Source: Clytia hemisphaerica (lineage: Eukaryota). Taken from it: a stretch of DNA of 64,000 bases. Positions 4,813 through 51,806 of the stretch are shown piece by piece (the stretch's first letter is position 1; every line of letters begins with the position of its first letter). Position numbers and translations under genes: made by a program. Below the pieces are notes generated by a model that made no database searches, was not told where the DNA came from, and was given only the letters and a program-made list of their open reading frames with translations. Location of the stretch: NCBI RefSeq assembly GCF_902728285.1, contig NW_027104472.1:1127681-1191680 (forward strand), written 5' to 3'.

Positions 4813-4899
4813 CGGCCAGCTGACACAAAGTTGTTTCAACATTCACAACGTCAATGTAACGTTAGATGAACGTTGAGACAACGTCGTGTGCCAGCCTGG
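4813..4899. mobile_element. Palindromic MITE (family B, CCAGCTGGCACACAACGTT TIR), copy 1
   Basis: ccggccagctgacacaaagttgtttcaac...aacgtcgtgtgccagcctgg. It begins 17 bp after the exon-4 donor. A second copy lies at 10009-10108. Confidence 0.65.
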
Positions 4900-10008: not shown

Positions 10009-10108
10009 CCCAGCTGGCACACAACGTTTTTTCGATACGTTTATCTAACGTTCACAACGTCCAAATAACGTTAGATGAACGTTGAAATAACGTTGTGTGC
10101 CAGCTGGG
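10009..10108. mobile_element. Palindromic MITE (family B), copy 2
   Basis: cccagctggcacacaacgtttttt...aacgttgtgtgccagctggg forms a near-perfect 100-bp hairpin. Confidence 0.7.
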
Positions 10109-14920: not shown

Positions 14921-15886
14921 GCTGACAATCGAGCAAAAACTTTTCATGTTGAGTATGTTTACATTATAAAACCAGAAATGAATAATATTTTGAAAACAGT
15001 GATCAAGTTAAAAAATAAAGGAGATTATTTATATAATACATATAATACAAGGGAATACAATAAGATGGAATAATAAAAGATTGCCAAAAAGTACACCATG
15101 AGAATTGATATAATGTGTTTTATGTGCAAATAGACTCAAGAAATTCTAGCTCTCATTCAGAAATTAGATGAATAATCTCATAAAAAAGTACTTTTTACAT
15201 TCAAAGTAAAAAGTTTGATGTTTTTAAGAATTATTAAAGGTACTAACAGTAATCATCAACAATCTGTAGGAAAGCACTTTTTCAACTTTTTCAATTGTAT
15301 GGAGTGTTGTTTATAATTCTATTGTAGAGATTGTTGTTATATATCATTTCAAAAATTCTGCATTCAATTGTACTCTTTTATGCTTACTTGTAGGGGGTGG
15401 AAGATGCAGGGGCAGTACTCTCAGAGAAAATTCATAAAATGGGGGGTCATTATTAACTGATTTTGGGGGGATTTTCCCAAAAAAACCCAAGGAAAATGAA
15501 GGTTTATGGCACTTTATCAGGAAAATTTCATAAATTGGAGGTCATTACAAAATGCTAATTGGGTGATTTTTACCAAAAAATTGCAAAACTACCACCTACA
15601 ATTTTAAGCACAAGAGGGTAATTTTTTCAGAGGTCACCAATGTCTCTTTTTGTATAAAAGTACCATATTATGACATGACGAAACCCAAAATATTTCCTCG
15701 CATCACATTATCTTGAAGCATGCATGAAGGTTCACCTTTCCAGAAATTTCATTCTTCAACCAAATTCAATCAAATTGCTAAAATGTTGTTCCCTAACCGA
15801 ACCTTTCTTCCAGTCTCTGTTATAAAACAAAGTTGTTCTTGTTTTTCTATAATAGTTTTCAAAAATAAAGCTAGCTAGCTTTTTTT

Positions 15887-16085
15887 CCATGTGAAATTTA
15901 TCAATGTCCAATGATGGGAGAAGAATCTCTCGAAACGTAGCCATGTGAAATTCATCAATGTCCAATGATGGAGAAGACTCTCTTGAAACGTAGCCAATCG
16001 CAAATCACGTGATCCATACATAGCTAGGTAGATTTTTTCCCCGTGATATTCCCGATGTCCGATGAGGGGAGAAGAGCCAAACGTA
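15887..16085. repeat. About 57-bp direct repeat, 2.5 copies, adjoining the satellite
   Basis: ccatgtgaaattt/catcaatgtccaatgatgg(g)agaaga(a)tctct(c/t)gaaacgtagcc twice, then a diverged third unit. Confidence 0.5.
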
Positions 16086-16199
16086 AATCTCGTGATTATA
16101 TTCAAGACACGATGAACTTCCACCAAATATTCACAATTCTGCACAATAGTCGAACGTGCGCAACGCACTGGGCTCAACTTCAGTGGCTTCAAATTATTC

Positions 16200-17088
16200 A
16201 TAGGCCCAATTGTAGACCCCAAGATATTCACCCAATGAACAAGTGTGCCAAATTTCAACCAAATCCGACCATTTAGGAGGCCTGTAGGCTGCTCCAAAGC
16301 TTTAGCCTCGTTTTGGCAAAAAACTCGTCCCCATGCCCCAAAAATCAAAATTTTTGAAAAATGCAAAAACCACACCCAGATATTCACCCAAGGAACAATT
16401 GTGCAGAATTTCAGCCAAATCAAACAATTTTTGAAGTCTCCAGGCTGCCCTAAGGTTTTAGCCTCGTTTTGGCGAAAAACTCGTCCCCAGGCCCCAAAAA
16501 TCAAAATTTTCAAAAAATGAAAAAAACACCCCCAGATATTCACCCAAGGAACAAGTGTGCAAAATTTCAGCCAAATCGAACAATTTTTGAAGTCTCCAGG
16601 CTGCCCCAAAGTTTTAGCCTCGTTTTGGCGAAAAACTCGTCCCAGGCCCCAAAAATCAAAATTTTTGAAAAATGAAAAAAACACCCCCAGATATTCACCC
16701 AAGGAACAAGTGTGCCAAATTTCAGCCAAATCGAACAATTTTTGAAGTCTCCAGGCTGCCCCAAAGTTTTAGCCTCGTTTTGGCGAAAAACTCGTCCCAG
16801 GCCCCAAAAATCAACATTTTTGAAAAAATGAAAAAAACACCCCCAGATATTCACCCAAGGAACAAGTGTGCCAAATTTCAGCCAAATCGAACAATTTTTG
16901 AAGTCTCCAGGCTGCCCCAAAGTTTTAGCCTCGTTTTGGCGAAAAACTCGTCCCAGGCCCCAAAAATCAACATTTTTGAAAAATGAAAAAAACACCCCCA
17001 GATATTCACCCAAGGAACAAGTGTGCCAAATTTCAGCCAAATCAAACAATTTTTGAAGTCTCCAGGCTGCCCCAAAGTTTTGGGACAT
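16200..17088. repeat. Satellite, about 155-bp unit, about 5.7 tandem copies
   Basis: Unit cagatattcacccaaggaacaagtgtgccaaatttcagccaaatcgaacaatttttgaagtctccaggctgccccaaagttttagcctcgttttggcgaaaaactcgtcccaggccccaaaaatcaaaatttttgaaaaatgaaaaaaacaccc. The first two units are more diverged than the rest. ORF-track proteins 15875..16738, 16567..17118 and 16672..16986 are translations of this array. Confidence 0.9.
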
Positions 17089-17119
17089 ACACACACACAG
17101 ACAGACACACACACACACA
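17087..17119. repeat. (CA)n / (ACAG)n microsatellite capping the satellite array
   Basis: acacacacacagacagacacacacacacacacat. Confidence 0.9.
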
Positions 17120-21950: not shown

Positions 21951-23454
21951 GGTTAAATCCCAAAGTCCAATTTTAAGTTTTAAGTGTATTTGGGTGATTT
22001 TCCCAATATCAACCCTTAGATTTTTTCATTTAAAATAAATTTATTTTTTGTAAGAATTTTCTCAGTAAATAAAAATTTGATATACCACGCATAATTATAA
22101 ACCTAATGTACATAGATAGTGTTCAGCTTGTTAATTTTTAATACCAAATTTATAATAGTTATTTTTTAATGTCTGTTTTTTGTTAAAGAAATTTTCAGCT
22201 TAATAAACTGTACCATAGTAGAATATATAACAGTCCAATAAAGTATAGGGGTAGCATGATTTTGTCGAGACTGTCATTCAAAAATTTTGGCAGGCTGTGC
22301 TCTAATTCTAATCATGTCTTTCTCAAAAATATTTCACTCACTCAGGGTATTCTTATCCCAACCGGGATCCCACCCCCATCCTGCTTATTTTAAGGCACCA
22401 AAGAATAGGTGAATCGCATCTAGCGACCATTCCAAAATCAATATACCGAGATTCATTTTTTGACCCCTTTGTATGGATCTACCTATACTTTATGTGAATC
22501 AACAGCAGTAGTAGTTCCCTACTTTATTCAAGTAATCTAAAAAGAAAAGAGGTCGAGTCTTAAATTTCAAATTTAATTGCAGGTTTAGTTTAGTTTAGTG
22601 TTTTCTTTTGAATTATGAATTAAACTTTCAACCAACGGTCTTGCCAGAAAAGGGAGAAAAGCATTTGATTGATTTTAAAAAGATTGTCGTTCCTTTATTT
22701 GGCGGTTGGTCACATGATTGTGACGCCTAGATTCACTTCCTAGGGTAGACTAATATGTTATAGTCTAAGACGAATCACTATCTAAGAAAAAAGCCCAAAG
22801 CCGAAGAAAATTCGCAAACGGATCTTTTTGCCGAAAAGAGTTTACAGTCGGTAGAGTTGCCAGTCTTCTTCGAAACTCTCCCGCCGATTTTTTTCCGTAT
22901 ATCGCCATAACGTCATACCGCCATTTTTCCCGCCTTTACTATCACTGTATGTAACGGACGATAACACCGTCTATTCCTAGGGCCTCTGATAGCTTTTGTA
23001 CTTACAGGGCCATTGTACTACGCATGCCGATCGGGTACCGTCTCTGATAGCCTTTGTACTTACGGGGACTCTGACATATGTCTACCGTTTACCTTACTTT
23101 CCTATAGGAGTGACCCCAATATCCGCCATACCACTTGTATATAGCACTGTAGCTTAAGGGTAAGACCAAAAGACATGTCGCCACCAGATATAAAGAACAT
23201 TGCAATCCCAAGAAACCCTCCGCGGTTACAACTCACATAATGACTGAAAATCATGATTTTTCCATAGATAATATAAAAGTTTTACATAGTAGTAATTATC
23301 GGATCGATGAAGAGCTTTATATAAAAGAAACGCTGATCATAAGGGAGCTCACACCGGACTTGAATGACTCTTCATTCCCCCTTGAGCTCTTTTAAGATGT
23401 ATGCGTTCCTTTGTGAAATTCAACAACTTGTAATTACCTGAAAGTAATTTTTAA

Positions 23455-23735
23455 TTGGGCTTTTCCAGAAAAAAACCGTGCACCCCCTGTTGAGGAGGTT
23501 CAACCTTTTGTGACCTACCCCCTTGGAATTCCAGCCAATTTTAGGATAATACCCCTCTGGAATTCCGAATTTTTACAAATTTTTAATCATTACCCCCTTG
23601 GAATTCTGCTTATTTTTGACGGATTTTCGTCTATCCCTATGGAATTCCACTGAATTTCAAACCTTACCCCCTTGGAATGGAAATGGACCTCCTCAACAGG
23701 GGGTGCACGATTTTTTTCTGGAAAAGCCCATTTTG
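23455..23735. mobile_element. MITE family I (TIR gggcttttccagaaaaaaaccgtgcaccccctgttgaggagg) with internal acccccttggaattcc subrepeats
   Basis: ggcttttccagaaaaaaaccgtgcaccccctgttgaggaggttcaacc (23457 onward) versus ggacctcctcaacagggggtgcacgatttttttctggaaaagccc (23687-23731). Five internal repeats of about 35 bp containing ccccttggaattcc. Confidence 0.75.
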
Positions 23736-24566
23736 TGATTTTTTTGAATGTTGTAAATTGATATTCGCTTTGAATTTTTGTACTGTACTTGTGATCATGG
23801 TGCAAAGAAGACACCGAAACGTCAATTAATGAATAAAATTAAATATTTAGTTTTCAGTTTTTTTATCAATATAGCCTATAACGGACTCATTCTCCAATTC
23901 TTGTCGCCTGGCCACTAAAATAATATTATTTTCAATTTACATACAGGTGAAAGAAATGGCGATTATCAATTTATACCCTTTATCGAAAACAAGATATTAT
24001 TTTTTCATATCTTTGATTTCAAACCCGCTGATTTGATATATCTTCACTATTTTCTCAACACAGCACCCATTTGAATATTATGAATGCAAAATACAGAAAG
24101 AAAATGAAATCCATGAAAAGGCATGAGCTGCGAGGAAAATGAATTGTTTTTTTGTGAGATTTTTATGGGAAAAATGACGAATTCATTGAAAATTTTAACT
24201 TGGTGGATGTATAGCGTATTATGATAATTTTCCTAAAATATTCATATTTTCTCAGGGAATATCTTTTTTCTGAAAATAAGTTTGAGTTTATCGACCCAGT
24301 GATATTCCAGGGGGGGGGGTACTTAGGCAAATGGAGGGTACGGTATGTGCCGCCCTTAAGGGTACCTTTTTTGGACTTACAAAGTCCCGCTAAGGGTCGG
24401 AAAAATCAGAAAATCAAATTTCAGTCCCACTAAGGGTCGGAAAAATAGGAAAATTTCAACTTTTCACCCCATGAAAGATCGAAATTTGATCAAAATTGGT
24501 CAAATTTGTCCCGCTAAGGGTCGTAAAGTTCCCAAAATTTTCCTTAGTTTTCTCTTTTTTAGTCCT

Positions 24567-24657
24567 GGAAGTTTATCGTGGCTTTGATCACGAGATTTAC
24601 GTTTGACTACGTTTACCAAACATAAATCTTGTGATTCAAACCACGATAAACTTCCAA
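24567..24657. repeat. Perfect about 90-bp palindrome (hairpin)
   Basis: ggaagtttatcgtggctttgatcacgagatttacgtttgactacgtttaccaaacataaatcttgtgattcaaaccacgataaacttcc. Confidence 0.7.
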
Positions 24658-25570
24658 TATGAATATCTTTTTTTCAATTTTAAGGCGTGCAAGAATATTA
24701 CCGAATAAAAATAATTTGGGAAGATGAAGAATGAAAAAAATAAATTTCATTAAGAACCCATCTTCGTAAGGTAATTTTTTGATCTTAGAATACCATCACT
24801 GTGAAAAAAATATTCATTACATAAATATATTAATCCAATCACAAGATAGCCCAAAGTTTATCACTATGGTTGACTTAAAAGATTAACAAATCAACAAAAA
24901 GGAGCCCATTTTAAAGTCAACCAGAAAGAAGTTTTAAGCTGTACTTTTTGACTGAATAAATACTTTTTGAAAATTTCTTCACTTTAATAACCCTCTAAGA
25001 TTGGACATCCTCGTATGAAAATGAAGATCATAGGACAATAAGAAGTTGTTTTTTTATTCATTTTTTTTATTTTCTATTTTTTTCTGAATATTTTCAATTT
25101 CAACATATTCCACTCCTTAATATCTTTCCAACAAGCGCAAAATAGCAATGCAGGTCGAATTCTTTCAAAAGTTACAGCTAAGAATCGTCGTTATCCGGTC
25201 GACAAGCTCTTGCTTTTTATTCGGTCAATAAAGGAAGTGTATCAAGAATCCCCGGGTCCCAGGCTTACCGGCTCCAAGTAATTACAAATACATGTTTTTT
25301 TTTTATAAGCAAGTGTCTGTCCCTATATCAGGCTCACATTATGCTTAGCATTCTATTGTTCTTAAACAATAGAGCCATTGTCCTGCCATTGTTTAGGCAC
25401 CAAAAACTGAGCCTGCATATGCTTATAAACGTTATGCTTATAAAAGAAAAAACATGTAATGAAATTATAGATATACCTTCCATTTGCACCGTGTAATATC
25501 GTCAAAAACCAAAAATCATTACACGAAACGCTCATATCGAATCTCAGTTCACGTGTGATGCTAAAAAGAT

Positions 25571-26006
25571 CAGTTCGGGAAATTGCACAGATCCGCAACG
25601 ATGCGAAATTCTGCATCTTCAGCGTTGTGATATTCCGCAACGTTGCGAAATTTCGCAGCTTTACTGCTGCATAATTTCGCAGCTCTGGCCTTTGGACCGA
25701 AATCGGCATCGCAGGGCCTGGGCCGGAGTCCCAAAATAATGTGCATTTTGAAGAACAACCCAAAAGGAAACTTTTCGCCCTAGCATTTTAATTTCCTACC
25801 TAGCGATTATTCACTATCATTCTTGGAAGAAATGCTACTTTGTTCAAGAAAGCAAGTTTTTGCCTGATTGTGCATGTGTTTAGAAGAAAATTGCTGGTAG
25901 GCGATAATTTCTAAAATCACAAGCTTCAATTAGAAGCGTTGCGTAAAATAGCAGCGCAACCCTGGGAATATTGCAACGTTGCGGATCTATGCAATTTGCC
26001 GAACTG
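25571..26006. mobile_element. TIR element immediately 5' of the GPCR gene
   Basis: cagttcgggaaattgcacagatccgcaacg (25571-25600) versus cgttgcggatctatgcaatttgccgaactg (25975-26006). Internal repeats gcaacgttgcgaaatttcgcagc. Confidence 0.65.
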
Positions 26007-26086
26007 AGATGAGAAGAAGTCAAAAAATCAATTGGTATTTTCTTAATGTGTTTACATTAATTTCATGTTTTAGGTAACCGTTCATA

Positions 26087-26953
26087 ATGGCTGAGTTCAA
26101 AATAAATGACGAAGAGAAAGCCCGTACTGCGCTCTCTGTAATCGTTCTCCTGGTTAATTTCATCGAAATCGTCTACATTACGAGGTTACGAAGGCAAAAG
26201 TCAAATTACGAGACTTTGTTATTGAGTTTATCGGTCGCTGATTTATCATTTGCGATTGCGAATATCATAACTTCCATATTTTTATTCGAAGATTTATTCA
26301 CTAATTCAGGTGTTGGGCTAATGATTTACATTTATTCATTGCTATTATCTATTTTACATATCTTGGGAATAACAGTTGATCGAATGTCTTAAATTTTATT
26401 ACCACTGAAACATAAAATCTATTGGCGTAGGAGGCATGTCCGAGGATTGATATTCACACTTTGGATTGTGCCTTTTCTAGTAATAGTTCCTGTATTCAGC
26501 ACGGTATATATTTATGGTTTTGCATATTATGTTGGGATGGTACAACATATTTCTATGTATTCAATTTTCATTTCGAATTCTCTTTTCACTGTCGCTTATA
26601 TCGTCATCATTGTGAAACTTCGGCAACAATTCTTGAAGCAGAAATTTATGACGAACCATAATAACCAGAATATATCGAAATGCAAGATATCAGTAAGAGA
26701 GATTCGTGTTTTTGTGATCTGCTTTTTGACATGTTTCGTTTATATTGCATTGACTTTACCGTTTGCTGTTTATTTGATATTTGATAAATCATGGCCTTCG
26801 TTTTGTGGCATTTTACTTGTCTTAAATTCTGGAATAAACTCATTTATATATCTTGTATTCGAGGGTTTCTTTTGCAAACTTTTCCGTAAAAAGAACACAG
26901 AGAAATCCAGAAGCCACCCAGAAGCACAAGATATACAGAACATCAGTAGTTAA
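26087..26953 (+). pseudogene. Intronless rhodopsin-like (class A) GPCR with one in-frame TAA at 26390-26392. Either a pseudogene, a nonsense allele or a sequence error.
   Basis: A single frame 26087-26953. Translation MAEFKINDEEKARTALSVIVLLVNFIEIVYITRL...LSLSVADLSFAIAN (TM2 LxxxD motif) ...ILGITVDRMS (DRY-like DRM at the TM3 end), then TAA, then ILLPLKHKIYWRRRHVRGLIFTLWIVPFLVIV... TMs 4-7 ...NSGINSFIY (NPxxY-like) ...stop. ORF-track entries 26087..26392 and 26447..26953 share the same phase. Confidence 0.55.
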
Positions 26954-27610
26954 GCTGAGTAAAAACAAGTGATTCATAAAAACCACAGAAAGATAACACT
27001 TATACCCTGTTATAAATTTGTATTGTTCTAGGGTATAGAATATCGTTCTGATCGTGATGACACTAAAATGGACAGCGTGGATTTTAGAGATTCTAATTAA
27101 ATTAAAGCAATGACTTTATTAATAAAAATATCGAGACTTGAAGATGATCCGAAATACTGTTTTCCCGTCAAAATTTTGGCCAAATCCCGGAATCCCGAAA
27201 ATTGAAAAAAATAACAACATCGTCACACCGGTTTGTGAGCTTAAAATACCGGAATACTGACAAAAAATAAGTCTAAATACCGTCACCGTCTGATTTTGAA
27301 ATACCGTTTCCCGTCTCTTTTTTCGTCAAATCCCGTACTAAAAAAGGGCCAATCCCGTCACACCGTAAAAGTACAACCCCCAACCCCCCCCCCCCCTTGG
27401 AAAAGTAACAAAAACACTCAAATTGAAAAATAAAAATAATGTATTTTGATAAAAATGATATAAAATTACACCGTTATAAAATTAATAAAATACAGTTGTT
27501 AAATTTTGTTAGTTTGAATATCATAAACAAAGTATTAGAGCAGATCCGAGGTGGCTGTCTAGCTTCCATATTTTTAAGGAAAAATTTTAGGATTTTGCTA
27601 TTATAGGGAT

Positions 27611-28458: not shown

Positions 28459-30503
28459 TTAAGGCAATTCTTTTCCCTTTTCATCCGATATCCCAACATC
28501 CACCACGTCACCCAAAATGCTGTTCGAATGTTCAGTTTGTTGACTAACTTCCTCTATCAAGTCATATGAACATCTACAACACGGAAAAACATTCCCGAAC
28601 CCGATTTCTAAGCGGGCTAATATACGGGCTAATTTCGGGAACAAAGTAAACCGATCTTCCAATAATATAAATGTGATGAAGTATAGGCAAATCAGCAAAT
28701 TTCCAACTCCAATCACGAATGACTTGATTTGTAAAACGAGTAAATTGTCTCGGTTATCCAAAGCTGTATAAGAGAGGATGATAGGCACAAGTGTAATCAA
28801 GTTGAGAAAATTACCAGACATTGTAGTACAAAGTTTCTCAAACCATTTACGTTCAATCGCTGTCATAATTTCGGGACGTCTCGGTAAATATTTCTCATAG
28901 GGATCCAGGTAGAGTACTAGTACGATATTAATCACGAGTAAAGCGATAATAAAGGGTCGTTGTAGTCCCCAAGTGATCGGTATAAAGGATAAAATGACGG
29001 ATAACAACATCCAACGTAACGTCAAGAAAACAACAAACACTGAGTGACCATTATATACGCCATCAGGGAGGAACATAATCCCAATTTCGTTATTAACATC
29101 ATCTGGGAATAATTGTTTGAAATAAATATAATGCAATGTAAATGGTATTCCAAGGAAATAAAAGAAAGACCCGAATATACCCAACATTTGGATTATGGAT
29201 TTTAGTTCACATTTCTTCCATGGTTGTGATGACATATACCATATGCCAGTTACTGGGTCCATTTTACAACTCAGCGTACTTAAGCTCATGTTACTCAAAG
29301 GAAACTGAAGAACTGACATGAATAAACAGTAAGAAAGAAATGCTCTCCTCCAAACTGGAATCTTCTGTACAGAACCAACAATCAGCATGTACAGTACTAG
29401 CAGTATTCCTAGTATGAGTGGTAGACAAAAAATAAGTACAAACGCACCTTCCCAGCCTAAGTTCGTTCCAGTGTAAAAATTCGGTAAACAGGCTAAACCA
29501 GGGACAGGTGCGTACATCATTTCTAAAAACTGTAGAAGATATTTCATGAAATTTGGCCATACGAAGTTTCCTTGTAATAACGCTTGTAGTGTTTGTATGT
29601 AGAAAATGAAAGTGAGTGTAGCATGCGGTGGAGAGCGAAGTTGTTGCATGTAGACAATCACTACGATGAAGACCATGAATAAAACTGACGCTGTGGAGGA
29701 GATCCCGAGAAGGACCAATAAAACGGTAATTAAAACTTCCAACAGGTTTTGATCGGTCACGGCATATTCGTTGAACGCTTTCGCCGATTTATGTTTACGT
29801 ATGAAATAGACTGCAAGAATGAAAATTGACGTAAGAAGGGCAGCGATGACGCAAACGGTTTGGCGTAAACCCATTGCACACGGGGCACAATGGTAAGGTG
29901 CTTTACGGTAATAGCCGTTCTCACAGGCCGAACAAAGTCGATCTTTATGCCCGATCGGACAGGGGTTTGAGCATGAGCTTGTACATTTTGGATCGATATC
30001 TGAAGCCGTGCGGTTTTGACAATGTAGATGACAGACTGAGCCCGTACATGGTGTAAACCGAGACATAGTCGTTGAGCATTTTATAACTGCCTGTAAATTA
30101 CGAGGTGTGTCTGGCCAATAGCCTTTAGAAACGTATAAAACAGCATCAGTTAGGTTGGTTGAGCCACCAATACACATGGCATTAGGCAAGCAAGGAACAC
30201 ATCTTTTTGTAGCCGACCCATAGTAGCTGATTTTACAGTAGCAATCGTCTATGGTCTTCGCGCCGACCTTCGAAGTTGCATTCTCTGGGCACCTTTCTTG
30301 AGTTGGTTTGACTGATCCTTTTGGACAGTAATATCCAGATAGACACGTTTGTGGAGCATTTGCTGCTTCGTCGCCAGAGAAACTTTGAGCAGTACCAGCA
30401 GGGCAATACGTGCCAGCTGGACATAAATGAGGTGGTGTTGCTGTCTTGTCTAAAACGTCTGCGAGTGGGTTGGATGTTGATGTACCCTCTTGACAAAAGA
30501 ATC
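28459..30503 (-). CDS. Large minus-strand gene, terminal exon: ephrin-receptor-like (GCC2/GCC3-type CxxGxYC) cysteine-rich repeats followed by about 10 predicted TM helices
   Basis: ORF-track entry 28459..30588 (709 aa). Acceptor tatttttag|g (minus, ag at 30505-30504) gives (G)FFCQEGTSTSNPLADVLDKTATPPHLCPAGTYCPAGTAQ...CLSGYYCPKGS...CSACENGYYRKAPYHCAPC, then hydrophobic segments VCVIAALLTSIFILAVYFI, LITVLLVLLGISSTASVLFMVFIVVIVY, GAFVLIFCLPLILGILLVLYMLIV, IIQMLGIFGSFFYFLGIPFTL, VFVVFLTLRWMLLSVILSFIPI, FIIALLVINIVLVLYL, FLNLITLVPIILSYTAL, FVIGVGNLLICLYFITFILL and others. Stop at 28459-28461. Confidence 0.7.
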
Positions 30504-30699
30504 CTAAAAATACAATGTGGGAAAGAAGGTTTATATGAAAAGATTTATAAAAGAGATTAGCCTTTACATTTAGTACAACACGAACCACAAAATTTACAAA
30601 AAATTAAAGTGCACTATTAGGTTTGATTGCTAATTCCTATTCCATGTTTAATAAGTAAAAAGTCTGTTGCAAATTCTTAGGAAAAGACGTAATACATAC

Positions 30700-32000
30700 C
30701 TTCTGGGCAAGCACCACTAGGTTGCAGTTGACTGTAATCACTACAGTAAAATCCAGCGGGACATAAACGACATCCCAAACCAGCATGACCTGGTGTACAT
30801 CTTGAGCAAAAATAATTTCTAGGTAAGACTGTATCTACACCATAACCGTTAATACAATCACCTATTAAATCCACTTTCTGTAGATACGTTACGAAGGTTA
30901 TACCGAACGGTTTAGTGTCTTGACCGCTGTGTATCATCCCGATTCCCGCAATCAAATCCGTATGATCGAACCGGTATAGTAAACGAAATGGGCACGAATC
31001 AGTCGCATACATCAAAACAGTTTTCTCAAAACTGATCACAAGTCTTTGTGCGATTTCATTGAAATCAAGAATCGGGATATTAGTGACAAATAAATCGTCA
31101 TATTTGGATAATAAACTTCCGAATTTATGATCAATACTTTGCGTACATACAGGCTGTAGTGTGATCGATGAAATAAAGGAAATATGATAAGTTTGATTAA
31201 CAACATTGGCTAGCGGTGTCTCAGCGCATAAAACAACCATCTGTGCACGCACGTAATCGTTATAGTTCGTAACAGCGAGACAATTTGTTATTTTGCCTTC
31301 ACGTTGTAGCTCAATCTTGTAATTTTGAGCGATTTTGTATTCCAATATTTTAGTAGAGACATCAGTTGTATTATGAGAAGCCAACAAGAAGGTATCAACA
31401 TTCGTGAAATAGATCACCCAAATACGAGTTGATTCTGTAGCATCGAAATCATCCCATGTCCAGCTACCTTTTACTTCTGCTTGCGCAACAATACCGGACA
31501 TGTTATATGATATACGGGCCATGTCCGCAATACGGAAAATCTGAATAGTTAAATAGTCGTTCGAAAGTTCTTGCACGACCAATAAATGATCATTCTTTGG
31601 GTTGATTCCTGCTTGGATGACGAAGACTTTATCACTGACACTAACGATGGAACGTAGATCCGGTGAACTGGTGTTTGTTACGGTTATAGCGGAAGCGCTA
31701 AACGCACCATACGGGGAGCGGTAGTATGACAGGTAAGCGAATGTTTTACCATCGGGTGAAAAGAAAGCGAAAGGGTGTTCAAAATTATGATTGATTCCGA
31801 CAGTTGATAAAGTATCGGCGATGAAGAAGGAGTAAGCTTCTGCGTACTCGAAGTCAATACTCAGTGCATTTTCTTTACTACCGTCACGGAAGAAGAGACG
31901 CCCTCCGTGTGAGAATAGCCAGATGTCACGTGACTGGTGATTGACCAATAGGAAGGACTCAGCAGGTGTGATACTTGTTGCAAGTGAAGGGTAAAGTAAC
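30700..32000 (-). CDS. Large minus-strand gene, exon 3: PD40/beta-propeller-like region plus first Cys-rich repeats
   Basis: Contains ORF-track entry 30677..31948. Acceptor tcttcttctttttag|g (minus, ag at 32002-32001). Translation (R)LLYPSLATSITPAESFLLVNHQSRDIWLFSHGGRLFFRDGSKENALSIDF...FFSPDGKTFAYLSYYRSPYG...CSRCTPGHAGLGCRLCPAGFYCSDYSQLQPSGACPE(G). Donor GAAG|GTATGT (minus) at 30699, phase 1. The 196-nt intron to 30504 restores CPEG-FFCQEG, a complete Cys repeat. Confidence 0.6.
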
Positions 32001-32329
32001 CTAAAAAGAAGAAGATTACAATTATTTTGATCTAATCGATGTAATGTTCAAAGAAGACGTTATTTGGTGATAAAATTTATTATTAATAACATTGAATTTT
32101 TTGTTTTTTTGTAGTTTACTAAAATATTAGAATTAGGCGTAATATTAGAAGTTCAGGTTAATTGTGCAGCACTTCATCATAAAAAAATTACTTAAAAAAA
32201 AAAGAATATGTACAACTAAAATTTGCCAGTTTTTGAGAGGATCTCAAAAATTAGTTTTTGAACTTATGATTACATTTTCAACGAATGCAGGTAACGTCCA
32301 TTCAAGATTGAAAGAATTGAAATATTTAC

Positions 32330-32546
32330 CTAGATGCAATCAATGCTGGTTGTAGTTCAGCGCGTACGTTGAAAATGAATCCTTTAGGATCAGCTGTTGC
32401 GCTAGGTACAATTTCGAAGAAGAATGTATCGCTTGATGCAAAACCGAATCGATTGATAGCGACACCCAGTCTCCAAGCAGATACGGTAAATGTGGAGATC
32501 GGATATGCAGATTTTCGGTCACTAATATCGAAGATGCGAGGTTCAC
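32330..32546 (-). CDS. Large minus-strand gene, exon 2 (laminin-G/pentraxin-like segment). Reading frame ambiguous.
   Basis: Acceptor tctcaccttag|gt (minus, ag at 32548-32547) and donor TCTAG|GTAAAT (minus) at 32329. Chosen frame gives (G)EPRIFDISDRKSAYPISTFTVSAWRLGVAINRFGFASSDTFFFEIVPSATADPKGFIFNVRAELQPALIAS. Its phases join exon 1 (phase 1) and exon 3 (phase 2) exactly. All three frames are open here, so the frame rests on phase continuity. Confidence 0.4.
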
Positions 32547-32723
32547 CTAAGGTGAGATTTTGACAAATTAAAACGAATGTATCGATGTTAATTTGAGTGA
32601 CTAAATAAGAGGGATATGTGGATGGGGAAATACAGAAGTATAGGAGAAATTCTCAGGAGTTTTAGAGAAAGATTAGAAAGAAATTTTCAAGAATTTTAGA
32701 GTCCCAAAAATATGTTATGCTTT

Positions 32724-33050
32724 TTAGGTACCTTAAAGGAAGAAGTTTTGGCGGGAATTTAATTTGGCGGATGACCGAAAAAGTTTTTTCAGAGGGAATT
32801 TAATTTGGCGGATGGCTGGAAAAATTAAATTTGAAGGGAATTTAATCTGGCGATTGCAGAATATTTTTGGCCAAAATCGTTATCAAATAAGCGAAAAAAT
32901 TTTTGTTTTAAGGCCTGAAATAGCACCAAGTTGGGGAATGCGTTAAATAAAATAAATTTGGCGGGAATTTAATTTGGCGGATTGAGGAAAAAATAAATTT
33001 TGGCGGGAACCGCCAAATTTTCTTTCCGCTAAAATTTCTTCCTTTAACGT
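32724..33050. mobile_element. MITE family F copy 2, inside intron 1 of the large minus-strand gene
   Basis: ggcgggaatttaatttggcggatgaccg...ggcgggaaccgccaaattttctttccgctaaaatttcttcc. Confidence 0.55.
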
Positions 33051-33291
33051 AAGTCGTATGTATTGTGGTATTCTGAAAACATCAAACGCTAAACTACATC
33101 CGGTCTCATCTCATGGATGGATTCTCAAAGTTCATCAGGAAAATGACCAGGTGAGGTTATTTTGAAAATTAATCGGCGGAATCTTAGATCTACTTCCCGT
33201 TGAAATAACCTTACGTTTATCCTATGAAACCAAACTTTGAGCAAGGAAATAGCTAAGGCTAATTGATACTGGAGTGTAGAATTAAACTTAC

Positions 33292-34303
33292 CAAGAATTA
33301 GACAAGCAATCAAACTTCCTTCGTTTGAAACGCTGCATGGAAAATGTTCGCTTAACGATCCAGTCAACATGTTAAAAGTCATTACAAGGTCTTGTATTAC
33401 AAATCCTCCACATTTATAAAAATGATGTGTCAAACGCCCGGCACAGTAGACAGAAAAGAAGGTTTTGAAGGAATGTGTGTCTGCGTTTAAAACAATGTAT
33501 TTGTCCAGTGACAACATTCGTTCTCCATCCTCAGCTGTAAACATAAGACCGGCAACACTCTCGTTGTTCGGGTTAATGACACAACTGTCGACAACCAATT
33601 CCAATTCACGACACGCTCTTAACGGACATGAATATAAACACGAGTCAGAGAAAACGTACAGGAAGTCATATGATGCAGCCACGTCGGTTACTTTCAATTC
33701 ATTTTGCAGGTCACCTATCACGAGATTACTTTCAAGTTGGATTTTACTGTCTGGCCAATCGAGAACATTAATAATAGAATAAAGCTGTGTCTTCTTTAGC
33801 CAGACAAGAACGGAAGAAGTTTTATTTCCGATAACGTGTACATGGAGCTCTCGCAAGTTATCAAACGCAGTGTAAACCAGCTCTAAATCCGAATCATCTG
33901 TTTCTTTCGTTAGACAAGTCTTTGAGAGCCGAACCAAAAAAGCTCGGTTTTTAGTCTTGCATTGTAAAGCAACCAAGTAGACAAAAGGTTGCACTAATAG
34001 AGCACTTTGTACTGAAATACACGAATCCCCCGTTACATTTTTAAGATTGATCTTGACAAGAGCACAATTTGAGGGTCCACTTTCTTCAGAGAATATCGCA
34101 TTTGCTTGCATTACATCATCAAGTAACGCCCATTCGACAACTGTTGTGTTTCCATGGGATACTGTTTGATAGGACATCGGGTTTGGACCAAGGTTTTTCG
34201 GTTTGTATAAGGAATCTTCGTAAAGTTCGGGGAAATATAAATTGCAGTTGACAAAGATACATAATGATGCGAATAAGCATATGTATGAGAAATGGTTCCA
34301 CAT
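33292..34303 (-). CDS. Large minus-strand gene, exon 1: ATG, signal peptide, Cys-containing ectodomain
   Basis: ATG at 34303. Translation MWNHFSYICLFASLCIFVNCNLYFPELYEDSL... (hydrophobic signal peptide) ...CPLRACRELELVVDSCVINPNNES...SLIACLIL(G). Strong donor CTTG|GTAAGT (minus) at 33291, phase 1. ORF-track entry 33125..34303 runs past this donor into the intron. A weaker alternative donor CCTG|GTCATT lies at 33147. Confidence 0.55.
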
Positions 34304-41240: not shown

Positions 41241-42908
41241 GTGACGATGGCTGCTAATAACGAACCGTTTCATCTATACCATTTACAGCTATTTGCTGTA
41301 AGTTCTATTGGACAACTTGCTTTACAGAAACTTATTGAGCGTTTTGCGAAGGAAGAAAAAGAAGGTGTTGCTGATGCTAAGGAAGCACTAAGTCAAATTT
41401 TTAATGACAATGCGGAGGAAGTGAAAAAGATTACCAATATATTTGTCAACCCTATTGTCACAAATGCAGTTTACGAAAACACTGTTAACCATGTTCTTAA
41501 AGAAGAGATTGAAATTGAAAAGTTAGACACCAACACATGTGCTGATGTCCTACGCAGAATCAAAGCGTTCCAAACTTCTAAAGATCATGCAGGTTCAAAA
41601 AATTGGCGTTGCAAAGGGCAAAACCATTTGAGTAAATGTTGCCCAGATTGTAAACATCTATGTCCTCAGCCTGACTGTCGGAAGGTAAAATGTAAAAAGA
41701 AGTGCTGTGTAACAAACAAAGAACACTGCTCTCATCCATGTATTCATTGTTGTTTACCTAACGACGACTGTAAGGATAACAAATACCTATGCTGTAAAGA
41801 TTGTTCATGCCTTGGCTGCGTACTGAAAGCCCTGGGTCTCAAAACTTGGCATCAACTTTACAAGGCTTTGGTTGACGAAAGCTTAACGACACACAACGTT
41901 TGTCCGATATTGCTACTACGGCTATCAATTTCAATTATTTCAACCTTCCGTAACATAACCATGCACTTGACAATACCTACATGTCGGAGTATGGACAATG
42001 GAACCTTTTTTGACCCAAATGCCCCTGCATATTGTACTTCATGGAAATACATCAAAGATACTCTTTGGTTTGCTGTTAAGACCTTGTTGGAGTATTTGAA
42101 AAACTGTCAACATATCACTGGATTTGATTATAAAGAACATTCTGAACTATTGGCTTTAATTTGTGGGGCTTCAAACAAACAGGATGTTTCAGTGTACAGT
42201 GCAAGGATTCAAAAGTTTGCAGAGCTTGAGAAATATTCTAAAATGGCCGATCTATTGATAACGTTAAAGATTGATTTAGATGTCGTCCATAAAAAGGTGG
42301 ACAAGGTAGATCAAACCACAAGGAATACCGAGAGAATTATCAAACAAAAGTCCCTAAAGATTGAAGCTCAAGCCGAGTTAGGGAAAAAGATGGACCGACC
42401 CTGTGATATGGATTCGCCGGAATTCGAAGAATTGAGAACAGCATTTGGAATCTCTGTAAACAAGTATTTTGGAGATGATGCCGAGGCAGTTATTACTCGC
42501 TTCAAATCGTTTCCATCTAACCATTTACCAGCAGACACGATTGAAATAAGATTCAAGATAACGTCAGATGAGACTTCCCTAAGAAATTATCGAGAATATA
42601 GAAAGGGACAGTCCCCGTCGTCCCCTCTTTGGAATGAAATAAAAGGAATCTTGCAACATACATTTCCTGGTGCTGAAATTTATGGTCCTGTTGATTGGGA
42701 CAGTGGCTCTATCATAATTCAAGTTTTGCTTTCGAAGGAAAAGAAAACTGACTGGACCACAAAGGAACTTGCGAATGTTGATTCTGTATTGGTGAAACTG
42801 GAAAAAAATGTTGAAGATTACTTACCTCAAGTGAAATGTGCTTGTAAACGAGTGGAACAGCCGAAGATATCAGCTACCCAGTTTCTGGAGATGAAAAACA
42901 GACAATAG
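41241..42908 (+). CDS. Intronless 555-aa ORF, Cys-rich central region, no recognised family
   Basis: ATG at 41241, TAG at 42906-42908. 1.67 kb free of stops in roughly 33% GC DNA. Central cluster CKGQNHLSKCCPDCKHLCPQPDCRKVKCKKKCCVTNKEHCSHPCIHCCLPNDDCKDNKYLCCKDCSCLGC. AT-rich TATA-like sequences lie upstream. Confidence 0.5.
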   Translation: MTMAANNEPFHLYHLQLFAVSSIGQLALQKLIERFAKEEKEGVADAKEALSQIFNDNAEEVKKITNIFVNPIVTNAVYENTVNHVLKEEIEIEKLDTNTCADVLRRIKAFQTSKDHAGSKNWRCKGQNHLSKCCPDCKHLCPQPDCRKVKCKKKCCVTNKEHCSHPCIHCCLPNDDCKDNKYLCCKDCSCLGCVLKALGLKTWHQLYKALVDESLTTHNVCPILLLRLSISIISTFRNITMHLTIPTCRSMDNGTFFDPNAPAYCTSWKYIKDTLWFAVKTLLEYLKNCQHITGFDYKEHSELLALICGASNKQDVSVYSARIQKFAELEKYSKMADLLITLKIDLDVVHKKVDKVDQTTRNTERIIKQKSLKIEAQAELGKKMDRPCDMDSPEFEELRTAFGISVNKYFGDDAEAVITRFKSFPSNHLPADTIEIRFKITSDETSLRNYREYRKGQSPSSPLWNEIKGILQHTFPGAEIYGPVDWDSGSIIIQVLLSKEKKTDWTTKELANVDSVLVKLEKNVEDYLPQVKCACKRVEQPKISATQFLEMKNRQ

Positions 42909-46836: not shown

Positions 46837-47433
46837 CTAAATTTTCCCTGACTTTTCCAGGTCTTCCCTGACTTTTTCCGAAAAAGCTACTTTTTCCAGG
46901 TTTTCCAGGTTTTCCCTGACCGCTGGGAACCCTGTTTGAAGCTCGTAATCATGCTGACGTCGTGGTCGTGTTCGAGGAGTAAATTTCTCTGATCTTATAG
47001 ACTCGTCATAAATGTGGAGGTTCTTGAAAACTTCCACCATATCACCAACTTGCCGTCTGGTCTTTAGGCTAGGTAGATTGATGAGTCGTAGCCGATCTTC
47101 GTATGAGTAGTTTTTATAGCAACTAACTAGCCTTGTAGCTCTTCGTTGGACGCCCTCGATTGCATTGATATGTTTGATTAGCCTTGGAGACCATACTACA
47201 TGTGCATATTCCAAATGGGGTCTGACAAATGCAATGAAAAGCGTTCGAAACATATCTGGTGAGAGAAATTCGAAGCTCCTGCTAATCAAGCCAACGATAG
47301 AGTTAGCTTTCTTGATTTTACTGAATATATGGGCTTCAAAGGTCAGGTCACTATCAATTATCACTCCTAGATCTTTTTCTTGGTCAACATGTTCTAGAAC
47401 AGATCCTGCTATGGTATTTGTAGGGATGGACAT
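46837..47433 (-). pseudogene. Degenerate non-LTR (CR1/Jockey/L2-type) reverse-transcriptase C-terminal region
   Basis: Translation KDLGVIIDSDLTFEAHIFSKIKKANSIVGLISRSFEFLSPDMFRTLFIAFVRPHLEYAHVVWSPRLIKHINAIEGVQRRATRLVSCYKNYSYEDRLRLINLPSLKTRRQVGDMVEVFK. This matches the conserved LINE ORF2 tail pattern (..LGV.ID..L.W..HI..KAN..LG.L.R.......LYK..VRP.LEY...VW.P.....IE.VQRRATR......SYE.RL..L.L.SL..RR..GD.IEV.K). There is no upstream RT core. Confidence 0.7.
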
Positions 47434-50337: not shown

Positions 50338-51806
50338 GTATGTTTAGACTTAAAGATTTAAGTGTTTCCGTTTCATATCAGACACATATTTCATATCAGG
50401 ATAATGTCTGTCTATTGTTATGTTATACTGATATAAGCGAAAAAATGTTTTTCTTTTCGTTTTTCTGACCAATCTTGCTCCACATCCGTGTCAATCCAAT
50501 GTGAGAAAGCTTGAAAATTAAATAAATTGATGAGTAACCAAACGATATCACTCTTATTTAAAGACAAAACCTTTAATACGACCAACTATGAAGCTTTGGC
50601 CGGGATAAAACTAGGCTGAAAGCATCCCATCTGATATGTTTTGATAAAGGGGATGCTCATCGTGTATAAGATTCCCGTTCGAGAGTTACCCCCGGGGGGA
50701 GGGGGGTACTAGGGCAAGATGGGTTACGGGGATGCTCCGCTGGTCAGGGTACCTTTTTTAACCTCCACGGGTCCCAGGTAGGGTCGCAAAAACACCAAAA
50801 TAGAAAAATCAGTCCCTCGTAGGGTGCCTATTTTTGGAAAATTTGAGGAAAAAGTAGAAAATCTGAGAAAATTTTGGAATTTTAGTCCCATTCAGGGTCA
50901 CTTTTTTCGCAAATTTCGAGTCCCACGTAGGGTCCATTTTTCGAACCTCAGCCCTCCGTCGGTCGACAAGGATAGCACTCCCCCCCCCCGGGAGTTACCC
51001 CCGTTTTTGTGTTTTTTTTTTCAGTTTTAGAAACTTGATTAGTAAATATGAGAGATCTTCAAATTTCATTACATTTATATTAAAAATTTGAATGGCTCTA
51101 GGTTAATACAATCATTGGGCTTGTTAACCTTAATATGAAAATCAAACAGGTTACCCCAAATTTGTGGTAATTCTCGAACAGGAATTTTATACACGATTAT
51201 CATCCTCTATATCAAAACATATCAGAGGGCATCCTAGGATGAAACAGTGTACCTACCCCAGTACGGGTTTGATAAAAGAAAAGTTAGCATTTACTTTATA
51301 ATAAATTTTTCCAACCCATAGTCTTTATTAGATTTATTAGGCAGTTTTTTAAAAACAATTTCAGCTTTCAAAAAGAGCTCTCCTTTTTTTTTTTTTCATC
51401 ATACAAGATCGACTTCTCTAAAATAAAATAGGGTTCTTCTGTCTACAAATTAAAGGATAAAAACAACTTTATAAATGTTTAAATGAAACAACTAAAAACG
51501 AACTTCCACATTCGTATAAACCGTGTGATTTTATCACAAACGTCGGAGTTAAAGCTCGAGATTCAATTGGAGGCCAAATTCTTTGATTGGAGACTTTTTG
51601 TAAGGGGTACCCCTAAATGAGATACTACTCGATAGGGGTACTCTCTGCACCAGAGTGTATATCTGTATAACGTAGCTTAGCGCAGCGCAATAGTTAGCGT
51701 AATGAATTTTGAAATTTCCGTATATATTGGGTCTTTTTACAGAAAATATTAGAGGTTTAAATGCGTCGAGAGATTGGTTGCAAGATTTTATGTTATTTAC
51801 TTGTAG

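What the first reader, a model, noticed from the sequence alone, without database searches (positions are those of the whole stretch)
26087..26953. Intact-looking class-A GPCR interrupted by a single in-frame TAA right after the DRY-equivalent (DRM) motif
An 867-nt single-exon frame encodes seven hydrophobic segments. It carries the LxxxD motif in TM2, a DRM (DRY-like) motif at the end of TM3, and NSFIY (NPxxY-like) in TM7. The only defect is TAA at 26390-26392, which gives ..ITVDRMS*ILLPLKHK.. The 560 nt downstream remain stop-free in AT-rich DNA. So either the inactivation is very recent, or this is a segregating nonsense allele, a base-call error (TAT, TTA or AAA are one step away), or a site of stop-codon readthrough. 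A TIR element ends only 81 bp upstream of the ATG.
Basis: seen in the sequence. Interest (0 to 1): 0.5.

Follow-up and report, generated by a model that had tools for sequence, protein, structure and literature searches.

The report
Catalogued jellyfish GPCR with one nonsense base
This is an already catalogued, polyp-expressed orphan receptor gene of the jellyfish Clytia hemisphaerica; the published sequence has serine where this copy has a stop codon, so the stop is a one-base null allele or an assembly error and is ordinary either way.

Summary
Window 26087-26953 (+) is a 288-codon single-exon ORF with seven hydrophobic segments and a Pfam 7tm_1 match (43 bits, cut-off 30.5). Its only lesion is TAA at 26390-26392.

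The gene is already known. Residues 1-245 are identical to Clytia hemisphaerica gene model TCONS_00049086 (EukProt EP00111_P016568). The same sequence is TCONS_00038670 in the published catalogue of 536 Clytia GPCRs. Both read Ser at the stop position (DRMSSILLP), so the difference is one base, TCA to TAA at 26391.

The catalogue's counts show low expression restricted to polyp samples. The closest relative (73% identity, from a marine metagenome) has Ala there. So do 126 of 149 library relatives plus that closest relative. dN/dS is 0.17 on both sides of the stop.

Old pseudogene and programmed readthrough are therefore disfavoured. The context is UAA-A, the downstream hairpin is not conserved, and the gene's own terminator is TAA.

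Two explanations remain: a haplotype- or strain-specific null allele (about 0.55) or a consensus error (about 0.35). Reads are needed to choose between them. Interest is low.

The parts
26087..26953 (+). Single-exon class-A GPCR gene, 288 codons plus terminal TAA. It is Clytia hemisphaerica TCONS_00049086 / TCONS_00038670.
   Evidence: Residues 1-245 are 100% identical to the published model apart from codon 102. Pfam 7tm_1 scores 43 bits.
26390..26392 (+). In-frame TAA at codon 102. By position-counting this is Ballesteros-Weinstein 3.53, two residues after DRM at the TM3/ICL2 boundary. The published model has Ser here, so the variant base is inferred to be 26391 (C in TCA, A here).
   Evidence: P0002 has GCC (Ala). 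In the family alignment the residue is Ala in 126 sequences and Ser in 5.
26087..26389 (+). The part before the stop: N-terminus and TM1-TM3 (101 aa). This is all that would be translated from the TAA allele.
   Evidence: dN/dS against P0002 is 0.172.
26393..26950 (+). The part after the stop: ICL2 and TM4-TM7 plus the C-tail (186 codons), intact. Residues 246-288 (TM7 with NSFIY, and the tail) are missing from the published 3'-partial model and are supplied by this window.
   Evidence: dN/dS 0.167; the published entry has no terminal '*'.
25570..26007 (.). 438-bp MITE-like element with 42-nt terminal inverted repeats, 79 nt upstream of the ATG. It is a neighbour; nothing shows it to be part of the gene.
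   Evidence: pair I2. It is the only copy in the window.
27121..27126 (+). AATAAA, a candidate polyadenylation signal about 170 nt after the gene's stop codon (inferred only).

Best explanation
The locus is the orphan rhodopsin-like (class-A) GPCR gene of Clytia hemisphaerica catalogued as TCONS_00038670 / TCONS_00049086. It is a single-exon gene transcribed at low level only in polyp samples (feeding polyp head, gonozooid, stolon).

In the copy in this window one base differs from the published Z-strain model. Codon 102 is TAA instead of a Ser codon. TCA is the only Ser codon one step from TAA, so a C-to-A change at 26391 is inferred.

I take this most likely to be a real haplotype-specific or strain-specific null allele, either heterozygous or segregating in the laboratory strain or species, or newly arisen. 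Translation would end after TM3 and give a 101-residue fragment without TM4-7, so no receptor. The next in-frame Met is residue 151, beyond TM4, so reinitiation could not rescue it. The gene has no introns, so the exon-junction form of nonsense-mediated decay would not apply and the mRNA may persist (inference).

Shown: gene identity, the sense codon in the published model, expression, equal purifying selection on both halves, and absence of other lesions. Inferred: that the TAA is biological and not a consensus error.
For: Gene identity: P0001 is EP00111_Clytia_hemisphaerica_P016568 / TCONS_00049086. It is 100% identical over 245 aa apart from Ser at the stop position. The same sequence is TCONS_00038670 in S1 Text of PMC7053711.

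Expression: S5 Data of that paper gives normalised counts of 0 in oocytes, gonad tissues, gastrula and planula. Gonozooid is 15/17, polyp head 56/35, stolon 4/3.

Source of the models: they were built with cufflinks/cuffmerge on the (Z4C)2 genome and Transdecoder. [quoted passage not shown] Single-base differences between assemblies or haplotypes are therefore expected at roughly one per hundred bases, far above typical consensus error rates.

Selection: dN/dS against the closest relative is 0.172 before and 0.167 after the stop, with dS about 0.95, and all indels are in frame.

Site conservation: a small residue is strongly conserved here, Ala in 126 and Ser in 5 of the aligned family sequences.

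The published model stops at residue 245 without a stop codon, whereas the window is continuous there. The window therefore comes from a different assembly or version than the one the model was read from.
Against: No reads were available, so a consensus error is not excluded.

Apart from codon 102, the window and the published model show no amino-acid difference in 244 codons. That is what an error on the same haplotype predicts. It is only moderately probable, roughly 0.2-0.4 by my estimate, if two different haplotypes were sampled.

Nonsense alleles are selected against.

The nucleotide sequence of the published model was not available, so TCA is inferred.

My attempt to measure window-versus-published divergence in neighbouring genes failed. 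No identical Clytia proteins for them are in the database.
Confidence: 0.55

Rival explanations
1. Consensus or base-call error in the assembly the window comes from. The true sequence would be TCA (Ser) and the gene intact and functional in this animal.
For: Two published annotation rounds of the same laboratory strain give Ser. Everything else in the 245 comparable residues is identical. Both halves are under equal purifying selection. The gene is expressed. The base lies in an A/T-rich low-complexity context, CTT[C/A]AATTTTATT.
Against: Substitution errors in finished consensus sequence are much rarer than the roughly 0.9% polymorphism frequency reported for this strain. Nothing else in the ORF looks erroneous: there are no frameshifts.
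Confidence: 0.35
2. Programmed stop-codon readthrough or recoding. The UAA would be decoded at useful frequency and a full-length receptor made.
For: The 186 codons downstream are intact. A stable hairpin lies at about 26429-26475, z = -3.3.
Against: The same species has a plain Ser codon and the nearest relative an Ala codon at this site, so the stop is not conserved. The context is UAA followed by A. From established knowledge, UAA with a purine at +4 is the most efficient eukaryotic terminator, unlike the leaky UGA-C or UAG-CARYYA contexts. The hairpin starts about 37 nt downstream and is absent in the relative, where z = +1.4. TAA is also the gene's own terminator.
Confidence: 0.02
3. An established pseudogene, fixed and decaying. 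The published Ser would then be an error of the older assembly.
For: The window has the stop. Expression is low. No protein for this gene other than the EukProt model appeared in the search, although NCBI and UniRef Clytia proteins for other genes are in the databases used.
Against: There is a single lesion only. dN/dS is 0.17 after the stop, equal to before it. Amino-acid identity to the published model is 100%. Two annotation rounds agree on Ser.
Confidence: 0.06

Closest known systems
Clytia hemisphaerica GPCR TCONS_00038670 (catalogue of 536 GPCRs, Quiroga Artigas et al. 2020, PMC7053711), also TCONS_00049086 (genome gene models; EukProt EP00111_P016568)
   Same: It is the same gene. Residues 1-245 are identical. 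It was placed among the Clytia GPCR candidates by Pfam tags and has 6 predicted TM domains in the available sequence.
   Different: The published model has Ser at codon 102 where the window has TAA. The published model is 3'-partial and ends at ..CGILLV. The window adds TM7 (NSGINSFIY) and the C-tail, residues 246-288.
P0002, a 295-aa intact GPCR on marine-metagenome contigs (ENA ERZ23498720, ERZ27264675; Logan SRR6869048)
   Same: It is 73% identical in protein and 77% in DNA, and collinear. It shares DRM, NSxIY, LxxxD and W4.50. Its contig flanks carry repeats also found in the window at 83-92% identity.
   Different: It has Ala (GCC) at the stop position and an N-terminus 11 residues longer. 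dS is about 0.95, so it is an orthologue from a related hydrozoan or an old paralogue. Which of these was not resolved.
Segregating pseudogenes in large single-exon class-A receptor repertoires, for example human olfactory receptor genes (my own knowledge, not tested here)
   Same: An otherwise intact single-exon class-A receptor carries one nonsense change while an intact allele exists in the same species.
   Different: Segregation has not been shown here. An assembly error remains possible. This receptor has only distant paralogues (37% identity or less), so it is not part of a recent tandem expansion.
Clytia MIH receptor (MIHR), the characterised class-A neuropeptide GPCR of Clytia (PMC7053711)
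   Same: Same species and the same Pfam 7tm_1 superfamily.
   Different: This gene has zero counts in oocytes and is expressed only in polyp samples. Its ligand is unknown. No close sequence relationship to MIHR was seen or tested.

Membership tests
Class-A (rhodopsin-like) GPCR, Pfam PF00001 7tm_1 | Match to the 7tm_1 profile above Pfam's gathering score over the whole 7TM core | tested here: met
   43 bits against a cut-off of 30.5, profile positions 2-260 of 260, for the window protein. P0002 gives the same score.
Class-A (rhodopsin-like) GPCR, Pfam PF00001 7tm_1 | Seven hydrophobic transmembrane segments | tested here: met
   A Kyte-Doolittle scan with a 19-residue window finds seven segments, at about residues 17-37, 44-68, 75-98, 119-143, 157-178, 206-231 and 240-260.
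Class-A (rhodopsin-like) GPCR, Pfam PF00001 7tm_1 | Signature residues: N1.50, LxxxD2.50, D/E-R-Y at the end of TM3, W4.50, P6.50 (CWxP), NPxxY in TM7 | tested here: met
   Read from the sequence: N24, LSVAD52, D98-R99-M, W126, TLP225, N251-S-F-I-Y255. The variants are Y3.51 to M, no W6.48, and P7.50 to S. DR[LVF] and NSxxY are common among the 149 nearest library relatives, so these variants are family traits and not damage.
Class-A (rhodopsin-like) GPCR, Pfam PF00001 7tm_1 | Conserved C3.25-ECL2 disulfide | tested here: not met
   There is no Cys at the top of TM3 (DLFTNSGVGLMIY) or in ECL2 (GFAYYVGMVQHIS). From my own knowledge, some class-A groups also lack this bridge, so the feature is frequent but not strictly defining.
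Class-A (rhodopsin-like) GPCR, Pfam PF00001 7tm_1 | 7TM bundle fold | tested here: inconclusive
   AlphaFold2 on the two-sequence alignment gave pLDDT 48.6 and pTM 0.24. The model is helical throughout but unusable, so no fold search was run. By sequence, the best solved relatives are 5-HT2A and the ghrelin receptor, at E about 3e-4 over TM1-4 only.
Functional (intact) receptor gene | Uninterrupted reading frame | tested here: not met
   TAA at 26390-26392 in the window. The feature is met in the published model of the same gene, which has Ser.
Functional (intact) receptor gene | Ligand binding and G-protein coupling | not testable with these tools
   It is an orphan receptor. The closest characterised names among relatives are only automatic labels, such as 'octopamine receptor beta-2R-like' in Hydractinia at 34% identity.
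Old (decaying) pseudogene | Several disabling lesions and relaxed constraint (dN/dS rising towards 1) downstream of the first lesion | tested here: not met
   There is one lesion only. dN/dS is 0.167 after the stop and 0.172 before it. All indels against P0002 are in frame.
Programmed stop-codon readthrough gene | A stop codon conserved in relatives, a leaky stop context, and a conserved downstream stimulatory structure | tested here: not met
   The published model of the same species has Ser and the relative has Ala. The context is UAA-A. The hairpin with z = -3.3 is not conserved, z = +1.4 in L001.
Nematode serpentine chemoreceptor families (Pfam Srv PF10323, Srx PF10328) | Best match to these profiles in preference to 7tm_1 | tested here: not met
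   Srv scores 29.2 bits and Srx 12-25 bits, both weaker than 7tm_1 at 43 bits. This is generic similarity among divergent class-A receptors.

The most novel reading that the evidence does not exclude
The UAA at codon 102 is read through or recoded in polyp cells, so that a full-length receptor is still made from this allele. That would be a rare case of functional UAA suppression in a cnidarian receptor gene.

A tamer and much likelier version, at about 0.55, is that the stop is a natural null allele of a polyp-specific orphan GPCR carried in the laboratory strain, usable as a ready-made knockout.
Probability: 0.02. Interest if true: 0.55.

Novelty: already known. Interest (0 to 1): 0.12.

Why it matters
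It matters little beyond housekeeping.

- **For Clytia users.** This assembly differs by one disabling base from the published model of a catalogued GPCR (TCONS_00038670 / TCONS_00049086). Annotation pipelines may drop or truncate the gene.
- **For the published model.** The window supplies the missing 3' end, TM7 and the C-tail, of that partial model.
- **If the allele is real.** It would be a natural knockout of a polyp-specific orphan receptor in the laboratory strain. It would also be an example of segregating null alleles in the catalogued set of 536 putative cnidarian GPCRs.
- **If it is an error.** It marks a base to correct.

Tried and rejected
1. **Paralogues in the window.** tblastn found none.
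2. **Exact-protein look-ups.** I looked up P0001 and the 101-aa N-terminal fragment to recover DNA from other assemblies. Neither is on record, so the published codon could not be read at DNA level.
3. **JGI metagenome scans.** One used a protein alignment and one a 48-nt DNA pattern with N at the variant base. Neither found anything.
4. **Baseline divergence.** I searched the neighbouring ORFs to measure divergence between the window and the published Clytia proteins. No identical Clytia proteins exist in the database. The best hits were 83% (metagenome) and 59% (a Clytia paralogue).
5. **Synteny.** I tested contigs carrying relatives of the neighbouring gene (L004, L005). Their flanks hold no GPCR.
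6. **Structure prediction.** AlphaFold2 on P0002 with P0001 gave pLDDT 48.6, so it was not used.
7. **Readthrough structure.** The hairpin downstream of the stop is not conserved.
8. **Split-receptor or reinitiation idea.** The next in-frame Met is residue 151, beyond TM4.
9. **RNA editing as the source of the Ser/stop difference.** Rejected from established knowledge: A-to-I and C-to-U editing cannot interconvert TAA and TCA.
10. **An intron removing the stop.** Rejected because both P0001 and P0002 align collinearly through the site.
11. **Origin of the window's assembly.** A literature search showed only that a chromosome-level Clytia assembly exists.

Full report
**1. Observation**

The sequence is as described. 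An ATG at 26087 opens a frame that runs to TAA at 26951-26953. It has one internal TAA at 26390-26392, reading ..ITVDRMS*ILLPLKHK...

The 186 codons after the stop are stop-free. Local base composition gives about 6e-7 for that. Only 8 of 7432 stop-free runs in all six frames of the window are as long.

The joined protein matches Pfam 7tm_1 over the whole profile, positions 2-260 of 260, at 43 bits against a gathering score of 30.5. A hydropathy scan gives seven segments.

The terminal-inverted-repeat element is real. Its arms lie at 25570-25611 and 25966-26007, are 42 nt long and 88% complementary. It ends 79 nt before the ATG and has no other copy in the window.

**2. What it is**

A search of about 5.8 billion proteins returned two hits.

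- **P0001** (245 aa) is identical to the window protein over its whole length except at the stop position, where it has Ser (DRMSSILLPLKHK). It is EP00111_Clytia_hemisphaerica_P016568, 'TCONS_00049086-protein'. The window is therefore Clytia hemisphaerica DNA.
- **The same 245-residue sequence** is entry TCONS_00038670 in S1 Text of the published catalogue of 536 Clytia GPCRs (PMC7053711). It lacks the terminal '*' that complete entries carry, so the published model is 3'-partial. The window supplies the missing TM7 (NSGINSFIY) and C-tail.

The Clytia gene models were made with cufflinks/cuffmerge from RNA-seq mapped to the genome of the three-times selfed strain (Z4C)2. Proteins were predicted from those structures with Transdecoder. 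[quoted passage not shown]

The published assembly therefore had a sense codon here. TCA is the only Ser codon one substitution from TAA, so the difference is inferred to be C/A at 26391.

The window is continuous where the published model breaks off. A chromosome-level Clytia assembly is mentioned in a 2026 preprint. The window thus comes from a different assembly or version than the one annotated.

**3. Expression**

S5 Data of PMC7053711 gives normalised counts for TCONS_00038670.

| Sample | Replicate 1 | Replicate 2 |
|---|---|---|
| Growing oocytes, full-grown oocytes, gonad ectoderm, gonad endoderm, early gastrula, 2-day planula, 3-day planula | 0 | 0 |
| Gonozooid | 15 | 17 |
| Polyp head | 56 | 35 |
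| Stolon | 4 | 3 |

The gene is transcribed weakly and only in polyp-stage samples.

**4. Relatives and constraint**

- **Nearest relative.** P0002 is an intact 295-aa protein on three short marine-metagenome contigs. It is 73% identical in protein and 77% in DNA. Its contig flanks carry repeats that also occur in the window, so its source is a related hydrozoan, or it is an old paralogue.
- **The codon in P0002.** At the stop position it has GCC (Ala).
- **Nei-Gojobori dN/dS.** It is 0.172 for the 101 codons before the stop and 0.167 for the 182 aligned codons after it, with dS about 0.95. All indels are in frame.
- **Wider family.** An exhaustive HMMER search of 1.84 billion representatives found no other relative above 37% identity. 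The top hits include a Clytia paralogue (UniRef A0A7M5WMS8) and a Hydractinia protein labelled 'octopamine receptor beta-2R-like'.
- **Site conservation.** I aligned the 149 best representatives with the window protein and P0002. The stop column is Ala in 126, Ser in 5, and another residue in the remaining 19. This is the small residue of the class-A 'DRYxA[IV]' stretch. NSxxY in TM7 and DR[LVF] are common in this set, so NSFIY and DRM are family traits, not damage.

**5. How the stop is best explained**

- **Old pseudogene: disfavoured.** There is one lesion, equal constraint on both sides, and identity to an expressed model.
- **Programmed readthrough: disfavoured.** The stop is not conserved; the same species has Ser and the relative has Ala. 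From established knowledge, UAA followed by A is the strongest eukaryotic termination context. The gene itself ends in TAA. The stable hairpin at about 26429-26475 (z = -3.3) begins about 37 nt downstream and is absent in the relative (z = +1.4).
- **RNA editing: excluded.** Neither A-to-I nor C-to-U editing can turn TAA into TCA or the reverse.
- **Reinitiation: no rescue.** The next in-frame Met is residue 151, beyond TM4.

Two readings remain.

(a) **A real allele.** The TAA haplotype exists in the animal or strain sequenced. With a polymorphism frequency of about 0.9%, single-base differences between assemblies are common, whereas consensus substitution errors are far rarer. I put this at about 0.55. 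A further 0.06 goes to the variant in which TAA is fixed and the older Ser is the error.

(b) **A consensus error in this assembly.** This is favoured by the complete identity of the other 244 comparable residues and by selection against nonsense alleles. I put it at about 0.35.

If (a) holds, the product is a 101-residue TM1-3 fragment and the allele is null. The gene has no introns, so the transcript may escape exon-junction-dependent decay (inference).

**6. What could not be done**

- The DNA of the published model and any reads were out of reach. Exact-protein look-ups failed, and two metagenome scans found nothing.
- Neighbouring genes could not provide a baseline of window-versus-published divergence. 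No identical Clytia proteins are in the database.
- Contigs with relatives of the neighbouring gene hold no GPCR.
- The AlphaFold2 model was too poor to use, at pLDDT 48.6.

**7. Comparison with what is known, and verdict**

The gene is a member of the class-A GPCR superfamily by Pfam score, topology and motifs. It lacks the usual TM3-ECL2 disulfide and W6.48. It is already in the literature as an unstudied catalogue entry.

A lone nonsense change in an otherwise intact single-exon receptor, with an intact version in the same species, is the ordinary pattern of a segregating null allele or of an assembly slip. The novelty rating is 'already known' and interest is low, at 0.12. The one useful by-product is the complete 3' end of the gene.

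Noticed in passing
window 16216-17081 (ORFs 15875-17118, minus strand): A tandem array with a 156/311-bp unit, about 5.6 copies, 94% matches. It creates long repetitive ORFs of 287 and 183 aa that are probably not genes.
   Followed up: partly
window 28459-34303 (minus strand): A large gene read as three long ORF-exons (709, 423 and 392 aa). The first exon looks like a signal peptide to my eye, followed by a Cys-rich part and many hydrophobic segments. The 709-aa part is 71% identical to Hydractinia 'uncharacterized protein LOC130647473' and 61-83% identical to many metagenome proteins. None of the three ORFs reaches Pfam's gathering score, and no identical Clytia protein is in the database, so the gene may be missing from published Clytia gene sets. 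In the relative L004, one uninterrupted 1116-aa ORF spans what is split in the window by a gap between the two ORFs (30589-30676).
   Followed up: partly
window 41241-42908 (plus strand): A 555-aa single ORF with a Cys-rich centre and no Pfam domain. Its best match is a 981-aa NCBI Clytia hemisphaerica 'uncharacterized protein' (P0172, carries PDZ domains) at only 59% identity, so it is an unannotated paralogue or a decaying copy.
   Followed up: partly
window 23453-23733 and 24566-24656: Two further inverted-repeat structures upstream of the GPCR. One has 50-nt arms (94% complementary) 181 nt apart. The other is a 40-nt-arm near-perfect hairpin with an 11-nt loop. They are probably MITEs or foldback elements.
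   Followed up: no
window 10014-10103, 4858-4894, 50702-50763; L001 1-183: Short repeats in the window match the upstream flank of the metagenomic contig that carries the GPCR's closest relative, at 83-92% identity. The environmental organism therefore shares repeat families with Clytia.
   Followed up: partly
window 46837-47433 (minus strand): A 198-aa ORF containing ..FVRPHLEYAHVVWSP... From memory it resembles the C-terminal region of non-LTR retrotransposon reverse transcriptases. It has no Pfam hit at E<=0.01.
   Followed up: partly
window 26429-26475: An unusually stable hairpin lies inside the GPCR coding sequence. The 126-nt context has z = -3.3, and 2 of 200 shuffles fold as well. It is not conserved in the closest relative, so it is probably fortuitous.
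   Followed up: yes
window 25563-25572 and 26005-26013: The MITE-like element 25570-26007 is flanked by ..AAAGA|TCAGTT and AACTGA|GATGAG. If the element ends are taken as CAGTT/AACTG, AGAT occurs on both sides and could be a 4-bp target-site duplication. The superfamily was not assigned.
   Followed up: no
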